Assembly (NCBI GenBank): GCA_000002445.1
Contig: CP000071.1
Location: 2,080,001-2,144,000, forward strand
DNA from: Trypanosoma brucei
Taxonomy: Eukaryota
Direction: 5' to 3'
Length of the DNA stretch: 64,000 nucleotides
The position numbers are program-made. Below, piece after piece: positions 15,001 through 24,000 of the stretch. Each line of letters opens with the position of its first letter. Within the stretch, counting starts at the first letter, position 1.

Positions 15001-18000
15001 GACGTACCTCTTCAGCGACTCGTTGGGTGGCACTCTACCCATCGTTTGGTAACCGAAGATCAAACAAAATAAAAAGGTATCAGCATAGAAACAACTACTC
15101 TACCTCACACAACGTACCCGCCATACGAGCGTACGGTGGAAAGCAGGATAGGCAATCTTTTACCCTCACTCTGGTCTTTCAGAAGCATAAAACACAACCC
15201 CGGAACAAGATTAGACGTTCTTAACCGAAAGCAAACTTACACCTTCCAACATCATAACAAAGTTAAACAAGGTGAATCACACCGACCGTATAAGATAATG
15301 ATTAAATTGCAAGAAACGTCAGTGAAAGAATCTGTGTGCGCGTACTGCACCTTCATTACTAAGAACAAGGCAGATGGAGGGATTGAAATGCTTTCTTTCA
15401 ATTTTATCGCCACCGTTATTTTCATTATTTTGAAAGTGCAGATGGCGTGCGTAGTAGAATGTGTTAGGTTGTATCGTTTGAGCTAAGTCAACGTCCGTGA
15501 TAGGGACACACTCATTCAAAATAACCAGTCCTGACGTTCTGCTTTTTCTGTTACAGGATAAAGAGGGTGCACTCTCATTGCACAAAATCCAAAATCATCC
15601 ACCCTTCGGATAGCTTCCATCATCACAAAATATCCCTCAAGCATTTTCCACCCTTCCTATCAAGACTAAAATATTGCGGAAGTGAATTTAATCGCTTTCA
15701 ATTCTAGTTTGATTTAGTGAAGTGCTCCAAGCGTTCCAGTTAACAGCATCACAATATTTGTACCAAAAGCAAATGCTCCCATTATGTGTGCTTGAATATT
15801 TCCTCCCTACAATCATATATTATTGTGTCCCCCTACCCCCAGCACCGGATTGATTATTATTTCCGGTATCTTTTCCGTATTATTTTTGCTACCCCTATTT
15901 TTCCCATCCCCGGTTTTTCCATCCCTTTTTACATCCTTTTCTTTTACCATTATTGGTCAGCTTGATCCCATTGGAATAAATACGTGTGTTACAAATCATA
16001 CTCAGCCCCTCCTAACACCCCCTGTTGGAAATAATTCTTCGAGGTCGCCTTCCAACTTCTCAATGGCACTCTTCAGCCCTCTTCCCTCTACATTGTCCTC
16101 ACTTAAATCACCCATTAACGTCGCAATTTCCCGCAATTCACCCAACCAAGGTATGTCCTCAACCATCCCAGCCCTGGTGTTTATAATGTAATGCACACCC
16201 GGGCCAGGTACGTACCCCGACAGGAACTCGAGCGGCCAAAAGAGTTGCTTTTTGTGTTTTCCCAAAACGTACATAGTCCCGCTGCAACCATCGACACGGT
16301 GGTTCAGGCTGCGACGAAATTTTTCCACCAGCTTAGCAAACCCTTCTTTGTGCCCCTCCACATTTGAACATTGTGACACAAGGAAATTCCACCTCTTCTG
16401 GGCATCATTTCTTGGTCTCCACACTCTACGATTTTCACCAGAAACGCAATTTTCACAGCAAAGTTTGGTTTTCCTTCTTGACTTTCTGTCTGTTGCGCAC
16501 AGACACAGTAAATCCCTGCTCAGTGACACGGGCCCCTGATTCACTTCGGGTTGTGAAACATCTCCCTCACATACACGCTTTCTGGTTGCACTTCTTTCCC
16601 TCATTTTTTTCGGTTGATGTGGTATACCATAAAGGGCGCGATTCAGCATTTGCTTTATTATATCCCCGTTCAACACCCAGTGTCTCTTCGTCATATTCCC
16701 ATATATCGTTTCGGCAGCGGATGCTACTTGCTTTACCTTCTCCAGTTTCTCATCATCCAAACTTTCTTTGCCTGCATTTCCCTCGCTCATCGACAGTTTT
16801 GCTGCATCCCAAAACACCTTGGAGTATTCACAGCTTTCGTCATTGTTGTCAATACAGGTATTGCTTAATTTCACGTCTCCAGCCAACTCAAGACATCTTG
16901 ATCCAATCTTCGTCAATGACTTGTTGACTTCCTGGGCTTCTTCTACCCTTTGCAATGCACCTTTCGCGAAATTAATCATACCACATAGGGCTCCAAATTC
17001 ATCTTCATTGACAATTTTTCCCTCCCCGAAGATACTTGTTCGGAGCACCAAGGCAAACAAAACGACGCAATATTTAATACCACACATTTTTCCTGCTTTT
17101 CACTTTGCTCAATATATTCACCTCCTGAAGATACACAGAAAAGGAACTATAAAAGTAGCACAATCTGTACGTTCTACTATTAACATTTCCTGACACCACA
17201 AATATATAGCATTAACATTCCAACAACATATTGGATAAGTGTAACCGGGTCTCGGAAATAGGGAACCGATGCAACAAAAAACGAAATAGAGTTATAGCTT
17301 TTACCAATTACACCCCAAGGAGTTCCCGACAAAACATTGTTAAACGCAGTCCCGGTGTGTATGTGAGAGACCCCAGCCGAAAGTAAACTCATTTTCTCAT
17401 GCTTTAATGTGGAGACCACGTATATTTTAACAGAAACCTTTTTGTGTTGTCGTTGTAGCTTGCGCACACTGTTTAATTAAATGGTGAGAAACGCTTATAG
17501 AATGCTTTGGGTACAAATGGGATATACATACGTGAAAGTACAGATACGTGCGCACGTATGTGGTCTCCCCACACTGCTTCGCCCTGGGTTACGCATACTC
17601 GACAACTTCCTAGCTCGTTGAGAATTACCTCTCTACGAGGTGGAAAACCTTCCTCAAACTCACACACATAAGGAATTCCCTCCCTTTACAGTGGGAATAT
17701 TCACTGCTTTCGTTTATCACAAACTATAATAAGTGTCAAACAAACAATTGATTAGTTTTCCTTTCCACAAAGATATGCACGCTACACGCGAGTCACTACG
17801 AAGTGGAACATATTATCCTAGACTTTTCAACAGTCGGCGATTACTTCACACAAAATACGCTCAATGTGACAAGACAGTTATGCCAACACCAACACATACT
17901 CTCTACGGAAATAGTATCGGTTATCTCATGAGCAGTTTGTGTGTGCATGATGCTACGAATATTATGAGGGGATATATGTGCGCGCGTATTAGAAGAGGGT

Positions 18001-21000: not shown

Positions 21001-24000
21001 TGCTCAATACATTCACCTCTTGAAGATACACAGAAAAGGAACCATAAAAGTAGCACAATCTGCACGTTCTATTATTAACATTTCCTGACACCACAAATAT
21101 ATAGCATTAACATTCCAACAACATATTGGACAAGTGTAACCGGGTCTCGGAAATAGGGAACCGATGCAACAAAAAACGAAATAGAGTTATAGCTTTTACC
21201 AATTACACCCCAAGGAGTTCCCGACAAAACATTGTTAAACGCAGTCCCGGTGTGTATGTGAGAGACCCCAGCCGAAAGTAAACTCATTTTCTCATGCTTT
21301 AATGTGGAGACACCATATATTTTAACAGAAACCTTTTTTTGTTGTCGTTGTAGCCTGCGCACACTGTTTAATTAAATGGTGAGAAACGCTTATAGAATGC
21401 TATAGGTACAAATGGGATATACATACGTGAAAGTACAGATACGTGCGCACGTATGTGGTCTCCCCACACTGCTTCGCCCTGGGTTACGCATACTCGACAA
21501 CTTCCTAGCTCGTTGAGAATTACCTCTCTACGAGGTGGAAAACCTTCCTCAAACTCACACACAAGGAATTCCCTCCCTTTACAGTGGGAATATTCACTGC
21601 TTTCGTTTATCACAAACTATAATAAGTGTCAAACAAACAATTGATTAGTTTTCCTTTCCACAAAGATATGCACGCTACACGCGAGTCACTACGAAGTGGA
21701 ACATACTATCCTAGACTTTTCAACAGTCGGCGATTACTTCACACAAAATACGCTCAATGTGACAAGATAGTTATGCCAACACCAACACATACTCTCTACG
21801 GAAATAGTATCGGTTATCTCATGAGCAGTTTGTGTGTGCATGATGCTACGAATATTATGAGGGGATATATGTGCGCGCGTATTAGAAGAGGGTAAATGGA
21901 CGTACAAGCAAAAAGATGTTATCGCGTATAAGCCTTAAAAAACTATGACCTCGGAATAAAGAAAAGAGTCATGGGTTTTAGAGCCCAGCTTTCATTCAAA
22001 GTAACGTGCTGTATAAAAAAGGAATAAAAAAACAACGACCACCAAATATGGTCGGTATGGATCCACTGTTTTGGTTACTCTGCGGCTCAGTCGATTTCAT
22101 ATCCACTGCTTTTTCAGTTTTAGTCTGTGGTCCCTTAATGGTCGGCTTCTCTTGGCCAACTTTTTCGGTCACATTATCTGATGTTTCGGTCGTGGGCTTC
22201 TCTTTGGGTTTCTCTTTAGATTCCTTCTCAGTACTTGCTCGTGCTGGTGCTGATACGGTAGCAGCCTGTTTGTGCTCCTGGCTTGAAACGAGTACAATGT
22301 GTAAGGGCAGTTTGCTACAGTCGTGGCCAGGTGCACTGAGCACAGATTTCTGAAGCTCCTCTTGCTTCTTTATAATTTCCTCCAGGGTACCTCTGGTACA
22401 CGTGTAGTAAGTTGGAGTTTCCCCAGTTATGTTGAGCTGCACAGGACAAGAGTCTCCAGCGGTCTTTTTGGCATCATCTTCCGAACTCTCTTTACATCCT
22501 TTCTTCATTGCGTCTTTCACAGATGACGCCAGCCGCGGACAAAGATGCTCGGTACTGTGTCGGTCTCTGCAGGGTACACCATAAGGCACCAAAACCGTCA
22601 CTTCAACGAGGTCTTCGCCAGCAGAAAGCATTGAACAGGTCGAGAACACACACAGAAATAACAGCACTTTCCCCATCATTCCGTAACTAAAGGTCAAAAA
22701 AGAAAAGGTATCATCATAGAAACAACTACTCTACCTCACACAACGTACCCGCCATACGAACGTACGGTGGAAAGCAGGATAGGCAATCTTTTACCCTCAC
22801 TCTGGTCTTTCAGAAGCATAAAACACTTGCTTGTTACTGAGCATACAATACAACCCAAACACAATGCAATCACTTAGTCACCGACGTCCAATGGCAATAT
22901 TAACGCGCTTAGTGCCGTCAAACGAACTTGCAAACAACACTTTCATTACTTGCCCACCAAAGCAGAAAGGGCGCCGGAAGGAAATGTACATCCGTTACAC
23001 GGAAGCTGGGGTCACTGCGGCACACTTCACGCGGAACTAAAGCTGCTTCTCCCCACCGCCGCAATACCTTTACCTATTTAAGAGCGTATATGCTAAAGAA
23101 GTGCATCTGCCCTGTTTGTGGCACCCCCTCCCCCAAGTTCAAATACAAATTATAGTAATAACGGGCAAAAACAAACCGGTGAATGAATAAACGAGTTTGT
23201 ACATAATGGCAGGGGCCGGAGATAAAAATAAAAATTGAAATGTGTAACTTACAACGTGTGAGGTGTAACTTTTGACTCAATTACCACTTCTTTTGTCGTC
23301 ATTATTATTGCTATTAAAACGGTGTGCATCAGAAAATATGACTTTCCAATCTTCGTGTACACTACTAAAGCCAAGAGAAAGTATGTTATAAGCGGTGTCG
23401 GAGGTCTCCACAATTTTCCTGCTTTACAATCCGCTGCACACGTGGCAGATGCAGCTTCACTATCTGCTACCCCTGATTTTCCCATGCTTCAATCTTTTGG
23501 TTTTGTCTTCGCGTACCCGATGGCTGAAGCAAACCCCGTCTCGTTGCTGTTCCTTCAGTCGCAGTTCCACGTTAATGTCAGCACTCTTGCGCTGTTCTAC
23601 AGTTTTTCAAAACTCGTTTTACTCACACTGTTTATATATTTTTTATTTTCAATGTGGCTTCTATCCCGCCGTCTCGGAAAACATAGCACATTATACTGTT
23701 TTAGTGGGCCTTCCAACACCTTGGGCTTGAACTGCTCGACATCCATGTAGTGGCCGGCACTACCTGTGTCACATGAAGCCATTAACACGTGCATGCACTC
23801 GCCCAAAACGTGACTCTCCGCCACTGCGCTTTTCCGCAACCTTTGAGTTCACGCAACACTCGTTACCAAGGTACCCTAAGGTTTTCAAGATCACCCTGTC
23901 CCCAGCCGTCTCGCAGAATTGAAACTGGGGAAATCTGCTCCAATTTCCACGTTCCTTGTCTTGGAGCCCTGCTCCGAGGCGCCGCAGCTAACCACATTAC

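What the first reader, a model, noticed from the sequence alone, without database searches (positions are those of the whole stretch)
15073..22828. Tandemly duplicated two-gene surface/secreted cassette resembling a procyclin-PAG-type arrangement
Two ~3.8-kb units lie head-to-tail on the minus strand. Each encodes first a small GPI-anchored Cys-rich surface protein and then, downstream, a 361-aa secreted protein with an ESAG6/7-like N-terminal signature. The units are ~98-99 percent identical. The exception is one localized block: the surface protein's N-terminal domain and the sequence upstream of it. A 118-bp unit-end fragment at 15073-15190 implies the array was once longer, or is longer in other strains. 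A small GPI surface protein followed by an ESAG6/7-like gene is the architecture of the African-trypanosome procyclin/PAG loci. The array also sits at the distal end of a directional gene block. This suggests a stage-regulated surface coat-associated locus and not housekeeping genes.
Basis: partly seen in the sequence, partly recalled or inferred. Interest (0 to 1): 0.65.

Follow-up and report, generated by a model that had tools for sequence, protein, structure and literature searches.

The report
Known duplicated VSG-related surface-gene pair
This is the already annotated Tb927.8.7300-7330 locus of Trypanosoma brucei chromosome 8, a recent tandem duplication of a small GPI-anchored orphan protein gene plus an anchor-less b-type "VSG-related" gene; both genes are more highly expressed in bloodstream forms, and the locus does not resemble a procyclin/PAG or ESAG6/7 locus.

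Summary
The tandem duplication is real. Window 15184-18371 and 19079-22264 are 98.9% identical over 3188 bp, with a period of about 3895 bp. The only diverged block covers the small protein's N-terminal domain and its upstream flank. A 166-bp relic of a unit start lies at 15030-15195.

The window is T. brucei TREU927 chromosome 8 (Tb927_08_v4 2,080,001-2,144,000). The genes are Tb927.8.7300/7320 (VR13/VR14) and Tb927.8.7310/7330 (T. brucei-specific hypotheticals). Carnes et al. 2015 already described this tandem repeat and its absence from T. evansi STIB805 and T. b. gambiense DAL972.

The 361-aa protein is a full-length b-type VSG N-terminal domain (Pfam VSG_B, E=2e-68). It has no C-terminal domain and no GPI signal. 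ESAG6/7 and PAG derive from a-type VSG, and no similarity to them was detected. Published arrays show all four genes higher in bloodstream than in procyclic forms.

Observations I did not find reported:
- The same gene pair exists on chromosome 11 (Tb11.02.1565/1566).
- The cassettes share a ~1.4-kb core (stalk and GPI signal, intergenic region, VR signal peptide). Its intergenic part is 93-100% identical between chromosomes.
- The coding regions flanking that core are saturated (dS>1), which implies gene conversion.

Verdict: already known, low interest.

The parts
15030..15195 (-). Relic X': 5' flank plus ATG and about 5 codons of a 7330-type small gene, lying just downstream (in transcription sense) of the last full unit
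   Evidence: 91.6% identical over 166 bp to 22664-22826. Homology ends about 16 nt into the CDS. Also present in the T. equiperdum OVI scaffold, L001 7318-7483.
15184..19078 (-). Repeat unit 1 (promoter-distal): Tb927.8.7310 + Tb927.8.7300
16002..17087 (-). Tb927.8.7300 (VR13): 361-aa VSG-related protein, b-type VSG N-terminal domain, signal peptide, no C-terminal domain or GPI signal
   Evidence: Pfam VSG_B E=2e-68. Identical to AAZ13493/XP_847559. Hydrophilic C-terminus.
16990..18371 (-). Conserved ~1.4-kb core shared by both chr 8 units and the chr 11 paralogous cassette: stalk and GPI-signal codons of the small gene, the whole intergenic region, and the first ~33 codons of the VR gene
   Evidence: 93.9% identity to the T. 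b. equiperdum chr 11 locus L002 10413-11791. The intergenic part is 93-100% identical per 75-nt window.
18103..18768 (-). Tb927.8.7310: 221-aa T. brucei-specific protein with signal peptide, 6-Cys N-domain, K/T/E/P-rich stalk and hydrophobic GPI-type tail
   Evidence: 100% identity to P0003. Features. No Pfam match.
18372..19078 (-). Diverged block of unit 1 (7310 N-domain codons plus a 310-bp upstream flank)
   Evidence: 41-72% identity to unit 2 within 18372-18800, lower further upstream. N-domain dS=1.29, dN=0.65.
19079..22826 (-). Repeat unit 2 (promoter-proximal): Tb927.8.7330 + Tb927.8.7320
19897..20982 (-). Tb927.8.7320 (VR14): 361-aa VSG-related protein; differs from VR13 by 8 nt and 5 aa
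   Evidence: P0001. dS=0.013, dN=0.006. Chromosome coordinates 2099897-2100982(-) in the Carnes 2015 supplement.
21996..22679 (-). Tb927.8.7330: 227-aa paralogue of 7310; 62% identical overall, with the stalk and tail nearly identical
   Evidence: Coordinates 2101996-2102679(-) in the Carnes 2015 supplement.
22265..22826 (-). Diverged block of unit 2 (7330 N-domain codons plus upstream flank X at 22664-22826)
12799..15029 (.). Convergent strand-switch region: plus-strand genes end at 12798 and the minus-strand array ends here
   Evidence: Gene orientation and Pfam identities. The GC-skew sign changes near 14 kb.

Best explanation
The region is the annotated Tb927.8.7300-7330 locus of Trypanosoma brucei brucei TREU927 chromosome 8. 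A ~3.9-kb two-gene cassette has been duplicated head-to-tail.

Gene 1 encodes a small Trypanozoon-restricted orphan surface protein. It has a signal peptide, a 6-Cys N-domain of about 110 aa, a K/T/E/P-rich stalk and a GPI-type tail. Gene 2 encodes a VSG-related protein (VR13/VR14, cell-surface-phylome Fam9). This is a b-type VSG N-terminal domain with a signal peptide but no C-terminal domain and no GPI signal.

The cassette is the last element of a short, 6-gene, all-surface-protein minus-strand transcription unit (2 trans-sialidases plus 2 cassettes) that ends at a convergent strand-switch region. VR genes typically sit at such regions.

Shown:
- The two units are young or recently homogenised (98.9% nucleotide identity; VR dS=0.013).
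- The small proteins' N-domains and 5' flanks are anciently diverged (dS about 1.3).
- A paralogous cassette on chromosome 11 (Tb11.02.1565/1566 = VR27) shares only a ~1.4-kb core running from the stalk codons, through the intergenic region, to VR codon ~33.

Inferred:
- The locus evolves by unequal crossing-over and gene conversion seeded by this core and by the repeated unit body. Conversion tracts stop where homology is lost, at the N-domain on one side and the VR body on the other.
- This gives a mosaic of old variable ends around a homogenised middle, and copy number that differs between strains (absent in T. evansi STIB805 and T. b. gambiense DAL972; duplicated in 927 and 427).
- The genes are probably transcribed as part of the polycistron and made bloodstream-enriched post-transcriptionally. 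The upstream trans-sialidases of the same unit are listed in a different part of the same cBF-versus-PF table, after Tb927.8.7290, which I read as the procyclic-up list (inferred from the numbering restarting, not from a heading).
- The products are accessory, dispensable bloodstream-stage surface or flagellar-pocket proteins of unknown ligand.
For: Identity of the locus:
- Exact or 99-100% protein matches to Tb927.8.7310, 7330 and the two VR proteins on a 2,481,190-bp contig.
- Chromosome coordinates in the Carnes 2015 supplement equal window coordinates plus 2,080,000.

Duplication.

Family:
- Pfam VSG_B, full length, E=2e-68.
- The only significant PDB sequence hits are class-B VSGs: VSG615 at E=1e-4 and VSG11 at E=1e-4.
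- Fold-search top hits are VSG615, mVSG1954 and VSG11.
- No 70-bp repeats and no VSG 3'UTR 16-mer.

Small protein as an orphan:
- Only 4 clusters, all Trypanozoon.
- A profile search of 1.84 billion representatives finds only its own family.

Chromosome 11 cassette: adjacent accessions EAN79374/EAN79375; locus L002.

Core and mosaic structure. N-domain dS is 0.9-1.5 against 0.03 for the stalk between the chr 8 copies. VR chr 8 vs chr 11 dS is 0.20 for codons 1-34 and 1.59 beyond.

Expression: 7300/7320 3.7x, 7310 3.1x, 7330 3.7x, Tb11.02.1565 4.8x and 1566 8x in cultured bloodstream vs procyclic forms. Tb927.8.7300 is in cluster 'BF>>PF' (PMC2771046 supplements).

Other literature:
- VR proteins are surface-associated in bloodstream forms (PMC4587319).
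- VR genes typically lie at internal strand-switch regions (PMC2771046).
- Tandem repeat and strain variability (PMC4288722).
Against: - No direct evidence here on which polymerase transcribes the locus. The literature says this is unknown for VR genes (PMC6988115).
- The order of events is not resolved: either a recent duplication followed by replacement of the 5' block, or an old duplication with concerted evolution of the 3.2-kb body. No donor for the 7310 N-domain block was found.
- The function of both proteins is untested. The AlphaFold model of the small protein was unusable (pLDDT 40.8) and that of the VR protein only moderate (pLDDT 55.8, pTM 0.59).
- The T. equiperdum scaffold that seemed to show a single-copy state has a 71-N gap exactly at the switch between chr 11-like and chr 8-like sequence. 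It cannot be used for copy number.
Confidence: 0.85

Rival explanations
1. One reading: a procyclin/PAG-type locus. A small GPI coat protein is followed by an ESAG6/7-like (transferrin-receptor-like, a-type VSG-derived) gene, possibly an insect-stage coat-associated unit transcribed by Pol I.
For: - Loose architectural similarity: a small GPI-type protein gene followed by a VSG-superfamily gene, at the end of a transcription unit.
- The genes are stage-regulated.
Against: - The VR protein is b-type (VSG_B E=2e-68), with no a-type or TfR match at permissive thresholds and none in the 50 fold-search rows listed.
- ESAG6/7 and PAGs are a-type homologues (PMC3605285).
- The small protein has no procyclin Pfam hit and no EP/GPEET repeats.
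- Expression is bloodstream > procyclic.
- The upstream neighbours are trans-sialidases.
Confidence: 0.04
2. Assembly artefact: a single cassette was erroneously expanded to two copies, or a longer array was collapsed, in the reference.
For: - Tandem repeats with about 99% identity are classic assembly problem regions.
- The X' relic could hint at more units.
Against: - The two copies differ at 35 positions spread over the unit.
- They carry completely different ~700-bp 5' blocks encoding distinct N-domains. An artefactual copy would be identical.
- The X' relic ends in unique sequence that continues colinearly at 99.1% in an independent T. equiperdum assembly.
- Carnes 2015 records the duplication in both strains 927 and 427.
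Confidence: 0.04
3. Functional pair: the anchor-less VR protein is held on the surface by the GPI-anchored small protein encoded immediately upstream. This would be a heteromeric receptor using ESAG6/ESAG7-like 'one anchor for two subunits' logic, and it would explain why the two genes stay together at two loci and share co-regulation.
For: - The pair is conserved at chr 8 (twice) and chr 11.
- VR13/14, VR27 and the related P0012 and P0013 all end without a hydrophobic tail, yet VR proteins as a class are surface-enriched (PMC4587319).
- Both genes are bloodstream-up at both loci.
Against: - Linkage is equally explained by co-duplication of a segment.
- A related anchor-less VR on another chromosome (L003) has no such upstream partner.
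- No interaction data exist, and no usable structure model.
- The two proteins are unrelated in sequence, unlike ESAG6/7.
Confidence: 0.12

Closest known systems
VSG-related (VR) genes of T. brucei (Marcello & Barry 2007; cell-surface phylome Fam9); specifically VR13/VR14 = Tb927.8.7300/7320
   Same: Identical sequences. b-type VSG N-terminal domain, chromosome-internal position at a strand-switch region, no 70-bp repeats, moderate bloodstream-biased expression.
   Different: Nothing differs, because this is that locus. Fam9 as a whole is scored GPI-positive in Table S1 of PMC3605285, but these members lack a hydrophobic C-terminal signal.
ESAG6/ESAG7 transferrin receptor genes and procyclin-associated genes PAG1/2/4/5 (Fam15/Fam14)
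   Same: VSG-superfamily proteins outside the VSG repertoire. ESAG7 also lacks a GPI anchor. Tandem pairs occur at the ends or starts of transcription units.
   Different: These families derive from a-type VSG, whereas the protein here is b-type. ESAG6 and ESAG7 are homologous to each other, whereas the two cassette genes are unrelated (hhalign probability 0.1%). There is no procyclin gene nearby, and the stage bias is opposite to procyclin.
Fam1 array on T. brucei chromosome 6 (b-type VSG-derived, flagellar-pocket proteins; Jackson 2013)
   Same: A T. brucei-specific tandem array derived from b-type VSG, at a strand-switch region, with low divergence between copies and copy number that varies between strains (PMC3605285).
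   Different: Fam1 is a single-gene array of 5 copies with GPI signals. Here a two-gene unit is repeated twice and the VSG-like member has no anchor.
Tb11.02.1565/Tb11.02.1566 (VR27) cassette on chromosome 11
   Same: Same gene order, same protein families and the same ~1.4-kb core (92.6-93.9% over the whole core, 93-100% per window in the intergenic part). Also near the end of a transcription unit and also bloodstream-up.
   Different: Single copy, flanked by LRRP genes. The VR body is only 46% identical and the small-protein N-domain is only about 35-40% identical by eye in alignment A1 (whole-protein identity about 50%). dS>1.

Membership tests
VSG-related (VR, Fam9) / b-type VSG N-terminal domain (Pfam PF13206) | Full-length match to the b-type VSG N-terminal domain model above the curated threshold | tested here: met
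   VSG_B 231.6 bits against a cutoff of 25, E=2.1e-68, model positions 1-352 of 352. The precomputed PF13206 annotation is on P0001.
VSG-related (VR, Fam9) / b-type VSG N-terminal domain (Pfam PF13206) | Chromosome-internal location at a strand-switch region, without upstream 70-bp repeats | tested here: met
   Last genes before the convergent switch at about 12.8-15 kb. Tandem Repeats Finder reports no 70-bp-type array in 12.5-35 kb. The criterion comes from PMC2771046.
VSG-related (VR, Fam9) / b-type VSG N-terminal domain (Pfam PF13206) | Sequence identity to a named VR gene | tested here: met
   Identical to XP_847559 and XP_847561, 'VSG-related, putative'. Named VR13/VR14 in the Jensen 2009 supplement.
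Canonical (antigenically variable) VSG | C-terminal domain plus hydrophobic GPI-addition signal | tested here: not met
   The protein ends ...EELFPTGGVRRG. Mean hydropathy of the last 15 residues is -0.59. The VSG_B match already covers residues 9-344 of 361.
Canonical (antigenically variable) VSG | Conserved 16-mer (TGATATATTTTAACAC) in the 3'UTR and 70-bp repeats upstream | tested here: not met
   0 matches with up to 2 mismatches in the whole window. No 70-bp repeats. The 16-mer sequence is quoted from my own knowledge.
ESAG6/7 transferrin receptor and PAG (Fam15/Fam14) | Homology to a-type VSG and to the TfR subunits | tested here: not met
   No a-type VSG Pfam family at E<=1. No ESAG6/7 chain among PDB sequence hits at E<=10 with the single sequence or the profile, and none in the 50 Foldseek rows listed. 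The a-type origin of ESAG6/7 and PAG is from PMC3605285. I did not verify that the TfR chains are in the PDB copy searched.
ESAG6/7 transferrin receptor and PAG (Fam15/Fam14) | Tandem pair of two homologous subunits, one with and one without a GPI signal | tested here: not met
   The two cassette genes are unrelated: hhalign probability 0.1%, E=0.73. One has a GPI-type tail and the other does not, so only the anchor asymmetry is shared.
Procyclin (EP/GPEET) locus | Small acidic GPI protein with EP or GPEET repeats | tested here: not met
   No Pfam family at E<=1 for either small protein. The stalk is K/T/E/P-rich with only one short KEKPKEKP motif.
Procyclin (EP/GPEET) locus | Procyclic (insect midgut) stage-specific expression | tested here: not met
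   Published microarrays: 7310 is 3.1x, 7330 is 3.7x and VR13/14 are 3.7x higher in bloodstream forms (PMC2771046 supplement). This is literature evidence, not my own measurement.
Procyclin (EP/GPEET) locus | Transcription by RNA polymerase I from a dedicated promoter | not testable with these tools
   The literature states that the polymerase transcribing VR genes is unknown (PMC6988115).

The most novel reading that the evidence does not exclude
The small GPI-anchored orphan protein and the anchor-less b-type VR protein are two subunits of one bloodstream-stage surface or flagellar-pocket complex. The anchored subunit would tether the VSG-fold subunit, a logic analogous to ESAG6/ESAG7 that evolved independently from b-type VSG. 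The ~1-kb intergenic core, kept 93-100% identical between chromosomes 8 and 11 while both flanking coding regions are saturated, would be maintained by gene conversion or selection to keep the pair linked and co-regulated. The anciently diverged N-domains (three types) would be the exposed, ligand- or antibody-facing parts.
Probability: 0.12. Interest if true: 0.55.

Novelty: already known. Interest (0 to 1): 0.2.

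Why it matters
As a finding it mostly confirms existing annotation. The genes are in the 2005 reference genome. The VR family was defined in 2007. The tandem repeat and its presence or absence among Trypanozoon strains were described in 2015.

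Its residual value lies in a few unreported details. The small-protein/VR pairing recurs on chromosome 11. All cassettes share a homogenised 1.4-kb core flanked by ancient variable coding ends. These VR proteins lack their own membrane anchor.

VR proteins remain 'poorly understood' (PMC6988115) although they are surface-associated in the mammalian stage. A testable partner hypothesis for one VR subgroup is therefore modestly useful to trypanosome surface biology. It would not change any major view.

Tried and rejected
1. Structure of the small protein. AlphaFold2 on the 4-sequence alignment gave pLDDT 40.8. That is too poor for a fold search, so none was run.
2. Remote homologues of the small protein. 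A profile search of 1.84 billion representatives found only its own family. PDB profile search found nothing, Pfam found nothing, and it shows no relation to the VR protein. The UniRef label 'Trypanosomal VSG domain containing protein' on the T. equiperdum small protein is therefore not supported.
3. T. equiperdum OVI scaffold L001 as a 'single-copy ancestral state'. Rejected, because a 71-N scaffold gap sits exactly where chr 11-like sequence (97.6%) switches to chr 8-like sequence (99.1%). This is probably a scaffolding join through the shared core. Only its right-hand part (VR13-like gene, tail, X' relic, downstream genes) is used.
4. Positive selection on the small-protein N-domain. dN/dS is 0.4-0.6 with saturated dS, so there is no evidence for recent diversifying selection. 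The divergence is old.
5. Generality of the pairing. The related anchor-less VR at L003 has no upstream small signal-peptide/GPI ORF and no shared core. The chromosome 3 VR (P0013) could not be fetched.
6. Rfam and tRNA scans of the window found nothing at the strand-switch region or in the conserved intergenic core.
7. Fold search with the VR model gave only weak scores (best E=7e-3, TM about 0.35), because the model is of moderate to low confidence. It is used only as supporting evidence for class-B VSG similarity.

Full report
**Observation**

- Self-comparison shows window 15184-18371 and 19079-22264 aligned at 98.9% identity over 3188 bp (33 mismatches, one gap). Start-to-start spacing is 3893-3895 bp.
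- A MAFFT alignment finds 35 differing positions scattered along the unit.
- Each unit carries two minus-strand ORFs. The small ones are 18103-18768 (221 aa) and 21996-22679 (227 aa from the annotated ATG). The 361-aa ones are 16002-17087 and 19897-20982.
- In the alignment that includes the T. equiperdum sequence, a 100-column identity profile of the two units is about 50-65% across the small gene's N-terminal coding part. It falls lower (0-53%) in the flank further upstream, then jumps to 98-100% at 18371/22264 and stays there to the unit end. A 75-nt profile of the region nearer the gene gives 41-72%.
- The end fragment exists but is longer than reported. 15030-15195 matches 22664-22826 at 91.6% over 166 bp.
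- Read on the minus strand, that fragment is the start of a unit: 147 nt of 5' flank plus the ATG and about five codons of a 7330-type small gene. After that, homology stops.
- The last 12 nt of the unit tail (GTGTTTTATGCT) are also the first 12 nt of the X element at 22826. The tail-to-X' junction therefore overlaps by 12 bp.

**Identity of the window**

- Both small proteins and both 361-aa proteins match GenBank proteins of Trypanosoma brucei brucei TREU927 at 99-100%, on a 2,481,190-bp contig. [quoted passage not shown]
- The Carnes et al. 2015 supplement gives Tb927.8.7330 at Tb927_08_v4:2101996-2102679(-) and Tb927.8.7320 at 2099897-2100982(-). These equal window coordinates plus 2,080,000.
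[quoted passage not shown] All four are absent from T. evansi STIB805 and, per TriTrypDB, from T. b. gambiense DAL972 (PMC4288722).
- Its supplement notes the duplication in strains 927 and 427.
- The feature is therefore already described.

**What the 361-aa protein is**

- Pfam gives a single significant family, VSG_B (PF13206, 'Trypanosomal VSG domain'). E=2.1e-68, covering model positions 1-352 of 352 and protein residues 9-344.
- No a-type VSG family appears even at E<=1.
- Against all PDB sequences, the only significant hits are class-B VSGs. The single sequence hits VSG615 (8ok8, E=1e-4). A 5-sequence VR profile hits VSG11 (8ok5/8onh, E=1e-4). No ESAG6/ESAG7 chain appears at E<=10.
- An AlphaFold2 model was only moderate (pLDDT 55.8, pTM 0.59) but is dominated by long helices.
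- Its best Foldseek matches in the PDB are VSG615, metacyclic VSG1954 and VSG11, with probability 0.9-1.0 but weak E-values and TM scores. No transferrin receptor is among the 50 rows listed.
- The protein has a hydrophobic N-terminal signal sequence and a hydrophilic C-terminus (...EELFPTGGVRRG). It therefore has neither a VSG C-terminal domain nor a GPI-addition signal.
- The window lacks the VSG 3'UTR 16-mer, and there are no 70-bp repeats upstream.
- Jensen et al. 2009 name these genes VR13 and VR14.
- Jackson et al. 2013 list VR genes as T. brucei-specific Fam9. [quoted passage not shown]
- The 'ESAG6/7-like' label is therefore wrong at the family level. The protein is a b-type VSG-related protein.

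**What the small protein is**

- Only four 90%-identity clusters exist in 5.8 billion proteins: 7310, 7330, Tb11.02.1565 and a T. equiperdum sequence.
- A profile search of 1.84 billion 50%-identity representatives recovers only the family itself.
- It has no Pfam family, no PDB relative and no relation to the VR protein (hhalign probability 0.1%).
- The alignment shows a signal peptide and an N-domain of about 110 residues with six invariant cysteines but otherwise about 35-40% identity by eye. A well-conserved K/T/E/P-rich stalk follows (...TEKESKEKPKEKP...KPTIKGPQTK...), then a hydrophobic tail after ...NGS.
- This is consistent with a GPI-anchored surface protein, but the anchor is inferred, not shown.
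- The AlphaFold2 model was unusable (pLDDT 40.8).

**Genomic context**

- Plus-strand genes run to 12798. They are a repeat-rich DUF7759 protein (the 'kinetoplast-associated' Tb927.8.7260), an ERGIC/ERV protein, an emp24 protein and an RCC1 protein.
- Minus-strand genes occupy 16002-31949: VR13, 7310, VR14, 7330 and two 748-aa trans-sialidases.
- Plus-strand genes resume at 35806.
- The GC-skew sign changes at about 14 kb and about 34 kb.
- The array therefore sits at the 3' end of a short six-gene transcription unit made only of surface-protein genes, abutting a convergent strand-switch region. This is the typical position of VR genes (PMC2771046).
- No tRNA or Rfam family was found there.

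**A second cassette, and a shared core**

- Tb11.02.1565 (small protein) and Tb11.02.1566 (VR27, 356 aa) have adjacent accessions, EAN79374 and EAN79375.
- In T. b. equiperdum chromosome 11 (locus L002) the two genes lie in the same order. They are followed by an LRR protein gene and then by convergent genes.
- DNA comparison shows that the chr 11 and chr 8 cassettes share only a ~1.4-kb segment. L002 10413-11791 matches window 18371-16990 at 93.9%, and L002 10351-11791 matches 22327-20885 at 92.6%.

Identity of chr 8 vs chr 11 along the cassette, in 75-nt windows:

| Segment | Identity |
|---|---|
| Small-protein N-domain codons | 39-55% |
| Stalk codons | about 80% |
| Intergenic ~1 kb (18145 to 17098) | 93-100% |
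| First ~33 VR codons | about 96% |
| VR body | 39-57% |

Codon-level estimates agree:

| Comparison | dS | dN |
|---|---|---|
| N-domains, among the three types | 0.9-1.5 | 0.5-0.65 |
| Stalk, 7310 vs 7330 | 0.034 | not noted |
| VR, chr 8 vs chr 11, codons 1-34 | 0.20 | not noted |
| VR, chr 8 vs chr 11, beyond codon 34 | 1.59 | 0.51 |
| VR13 vs VR14 | 0.013 | 0.006 (5 amino-acid changes) |

- The boundary of chr 11 homology with unit 1 (18371) is the same nucleotide as the boundary between the two chr 8 units.

**Mechanism (inference)**

- A non-coding kilobase that is 93-100% identical between chromosomes, sandwiched between coding regions saturated at synonymous sites, is most simply explained by gene conversion between the cassettes.
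- The 3.2-kb identity between the two chr 8 units is explained the same way, or by a recent unequal crossover.
- Conversion tracts necessarily end where homology is lost, which gives the sharp edges observed.
- I favour an older two-unit (or longer) array with different N-domain types, whose bodies have been homogenised. This needs no unknown donor, and the 91.6% X/X' relic is clearly older than the 98.9% unit identity.
- A recent duplication followed by replacement of the 7310 5' block is not excluded.
- dN/dS of 0.4-0.6 with saturated dS gives no evidence of recent diversifying selection.

**Caveat on the T. equiperdum scaffold**

- The OVI scaffold (L001) at first looked like a single-copy version with a chr 11-type small gene.
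- Its positions 1-4982 match chr 11 at 97.6%, and 5055-14634 match the window (17459-7883) at 99.1%. A run of 71 Ns lies exactly between them.
- I treat it as a probable scaffolding join through the shared core.
- I use only its right-hand part. That part shows the VR13-type gene, the tail, the X' relic and the downstream genes colinear in an independent assembly.

**Artefact?**

- The two units differ at 35 positions and carry unrelated ~700-bp 5' blocks that encode different, intact N-domains.
- The array is reported in two strains.
- An assembly expansion is therefore very unlikely. A collapse of a longer array cannot be excluded without long reads.

**Expression and function (literature)**

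| Gene(s) | Cultured bloodstream / procyclic |
|---|---|
| Tb927.8.7300/7320 | 3.7x |
| Tb927.8.7310 | 3.1x |
| Tb927.8.7330 | 3.7x |
| Tb11.02.1565 | 4.8x |
| Tb11.02.1566 | 8x |

- These values are from the Jensen 2009 supplements. Tb927.8.7300 is in the 'BF>>PF' cluster.
- The trans-sialidases of the same transcription unit appear in a different part of the same cBF-versus-PF table (2.8x, 2.7x). They follow Tb927.8.7290, after the numbering restarts. I read that part as the procyclic-up list; the direction is inferred from the numbering, not from a heading. If so, control within the unit is post-transcriptional (inference).
- VR proteins as a class are enriched in the bloodstream-form surface proteome (PMC4587319).
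- They remain 'poorly understood', and their polymerase is unknown (PMC6988115).
- The locus is naturally absent from some Trypanozoon strains, so it is dispensable at least for them.

- Procyclin loci combine EP/GPEET repeat proteins with a-type-derived PAGs and are procyclic-specific.
- Here the small protein is an unrelated Cys-rich orphan, the downstream gene is b-type, and expression is bloodstream-biased.

**Residual novelty**

- I did not find the following in the papers read: the recurrence of the small-protein/VR pair on chromosome 11, the homogenised core, and the fact that this VR subgroup (VR13/14, VR27, P0012, P0013) lacks any anchor.
- A speculative reading is that the GPI-anchored small protein tethers the anchor-less VR, as ESAG6 does for ESAG7. 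I give it about 12%.
- Co-duplication explains the linkage equally well, and a related anchor-less VR (L003) has no such partner.

**Verdict**

The feature is already known, and interest is low.

Noticed in passing
window 26761-32189: A second head-to-tail duplication in the same transcription unit. Two 2.7-kb units (26761-29470 vs 29480-32189) are 98.1% identical. Each encodes a 748-aa trans-sialidase (BNR_3 + TS_C), probably Tb927.8.7340/7350. In the Jensen 2009 supplement they appear in a different part of the cBF-versus-PF table from the downstream cassette genes. I read that part as the procyclic-up list, which would put opposite stage biases inside one polycistron.
   Followed up: partly
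window 17098-18145 (and 20993-22040): The intergenic region between the small gene and the VR gene is 93-100% identical per 75-nt window between the chr 8 cassettes and the chr 11 cassette (L002). Both flanking coding regions have dS>1. No Rfam family, tRNA or convincing ORF explains this. It could reflect gene conversion or a conserved UTR or regulatory element.
   Followed up: partly
L001 4983-5053: T. equiperdum OVI scaffold CZPT02000251.1 has a 71-N gap exactly where chr 11-like sequence (Tb11.02.1564/1565 orthologues) switches to chr 8-like sequence (VR13 and downstream). This is probably a scaffolding chimera through the shared core. The UniRef name 'Trypanosomal VSG domain containing protein' for its small protein is not supported by any search.
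   Followed up: yes
window 4261-5421 (inside ORF 2839-6039): A long array of 24-bp tandem repeats that is very purine-rich on the plus strand (GC skew 0.29, AT skew 0.54). It lies inside a 1066-aa ORF with a C-terminal DUF7759 domain, evidently the 'kinetoplast-associated' Tb927.8.7260. Carnes 2015 reports that its mid-region is deleted and frame-shifted in T. evansi STIB805.
   Followed up: no
window 15184-15195, 19079-19090 and 22815-22826: The 12-mer GTGTTTTATGCT ends the unit tail and also begins the X element upstream of Tb927.8.7330. It could be a microhomology used in the duplication, or the last trace of a further upstream unit tail.
   Followed up: partly
window 48994-54342: A 1782-aa ORF with all seven Rpb1 domains, that is, the largest subunit of an RNA polymerase (RPB1-type). 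Calreticulin (54955-56142), a PP1-type phosphatase (47001-48041) and a class-3 lipase (62547-63653) lie nearby. These are ordinary housekeeping context on the plus-strand unit, unrelated to the finding.
   Followed up: no
window 14000-24000: The array and its flanks have lower G+C (0.43-0.46) than the neighbouring housekeeping blocks (0.48-0.52).
   Followed up: no
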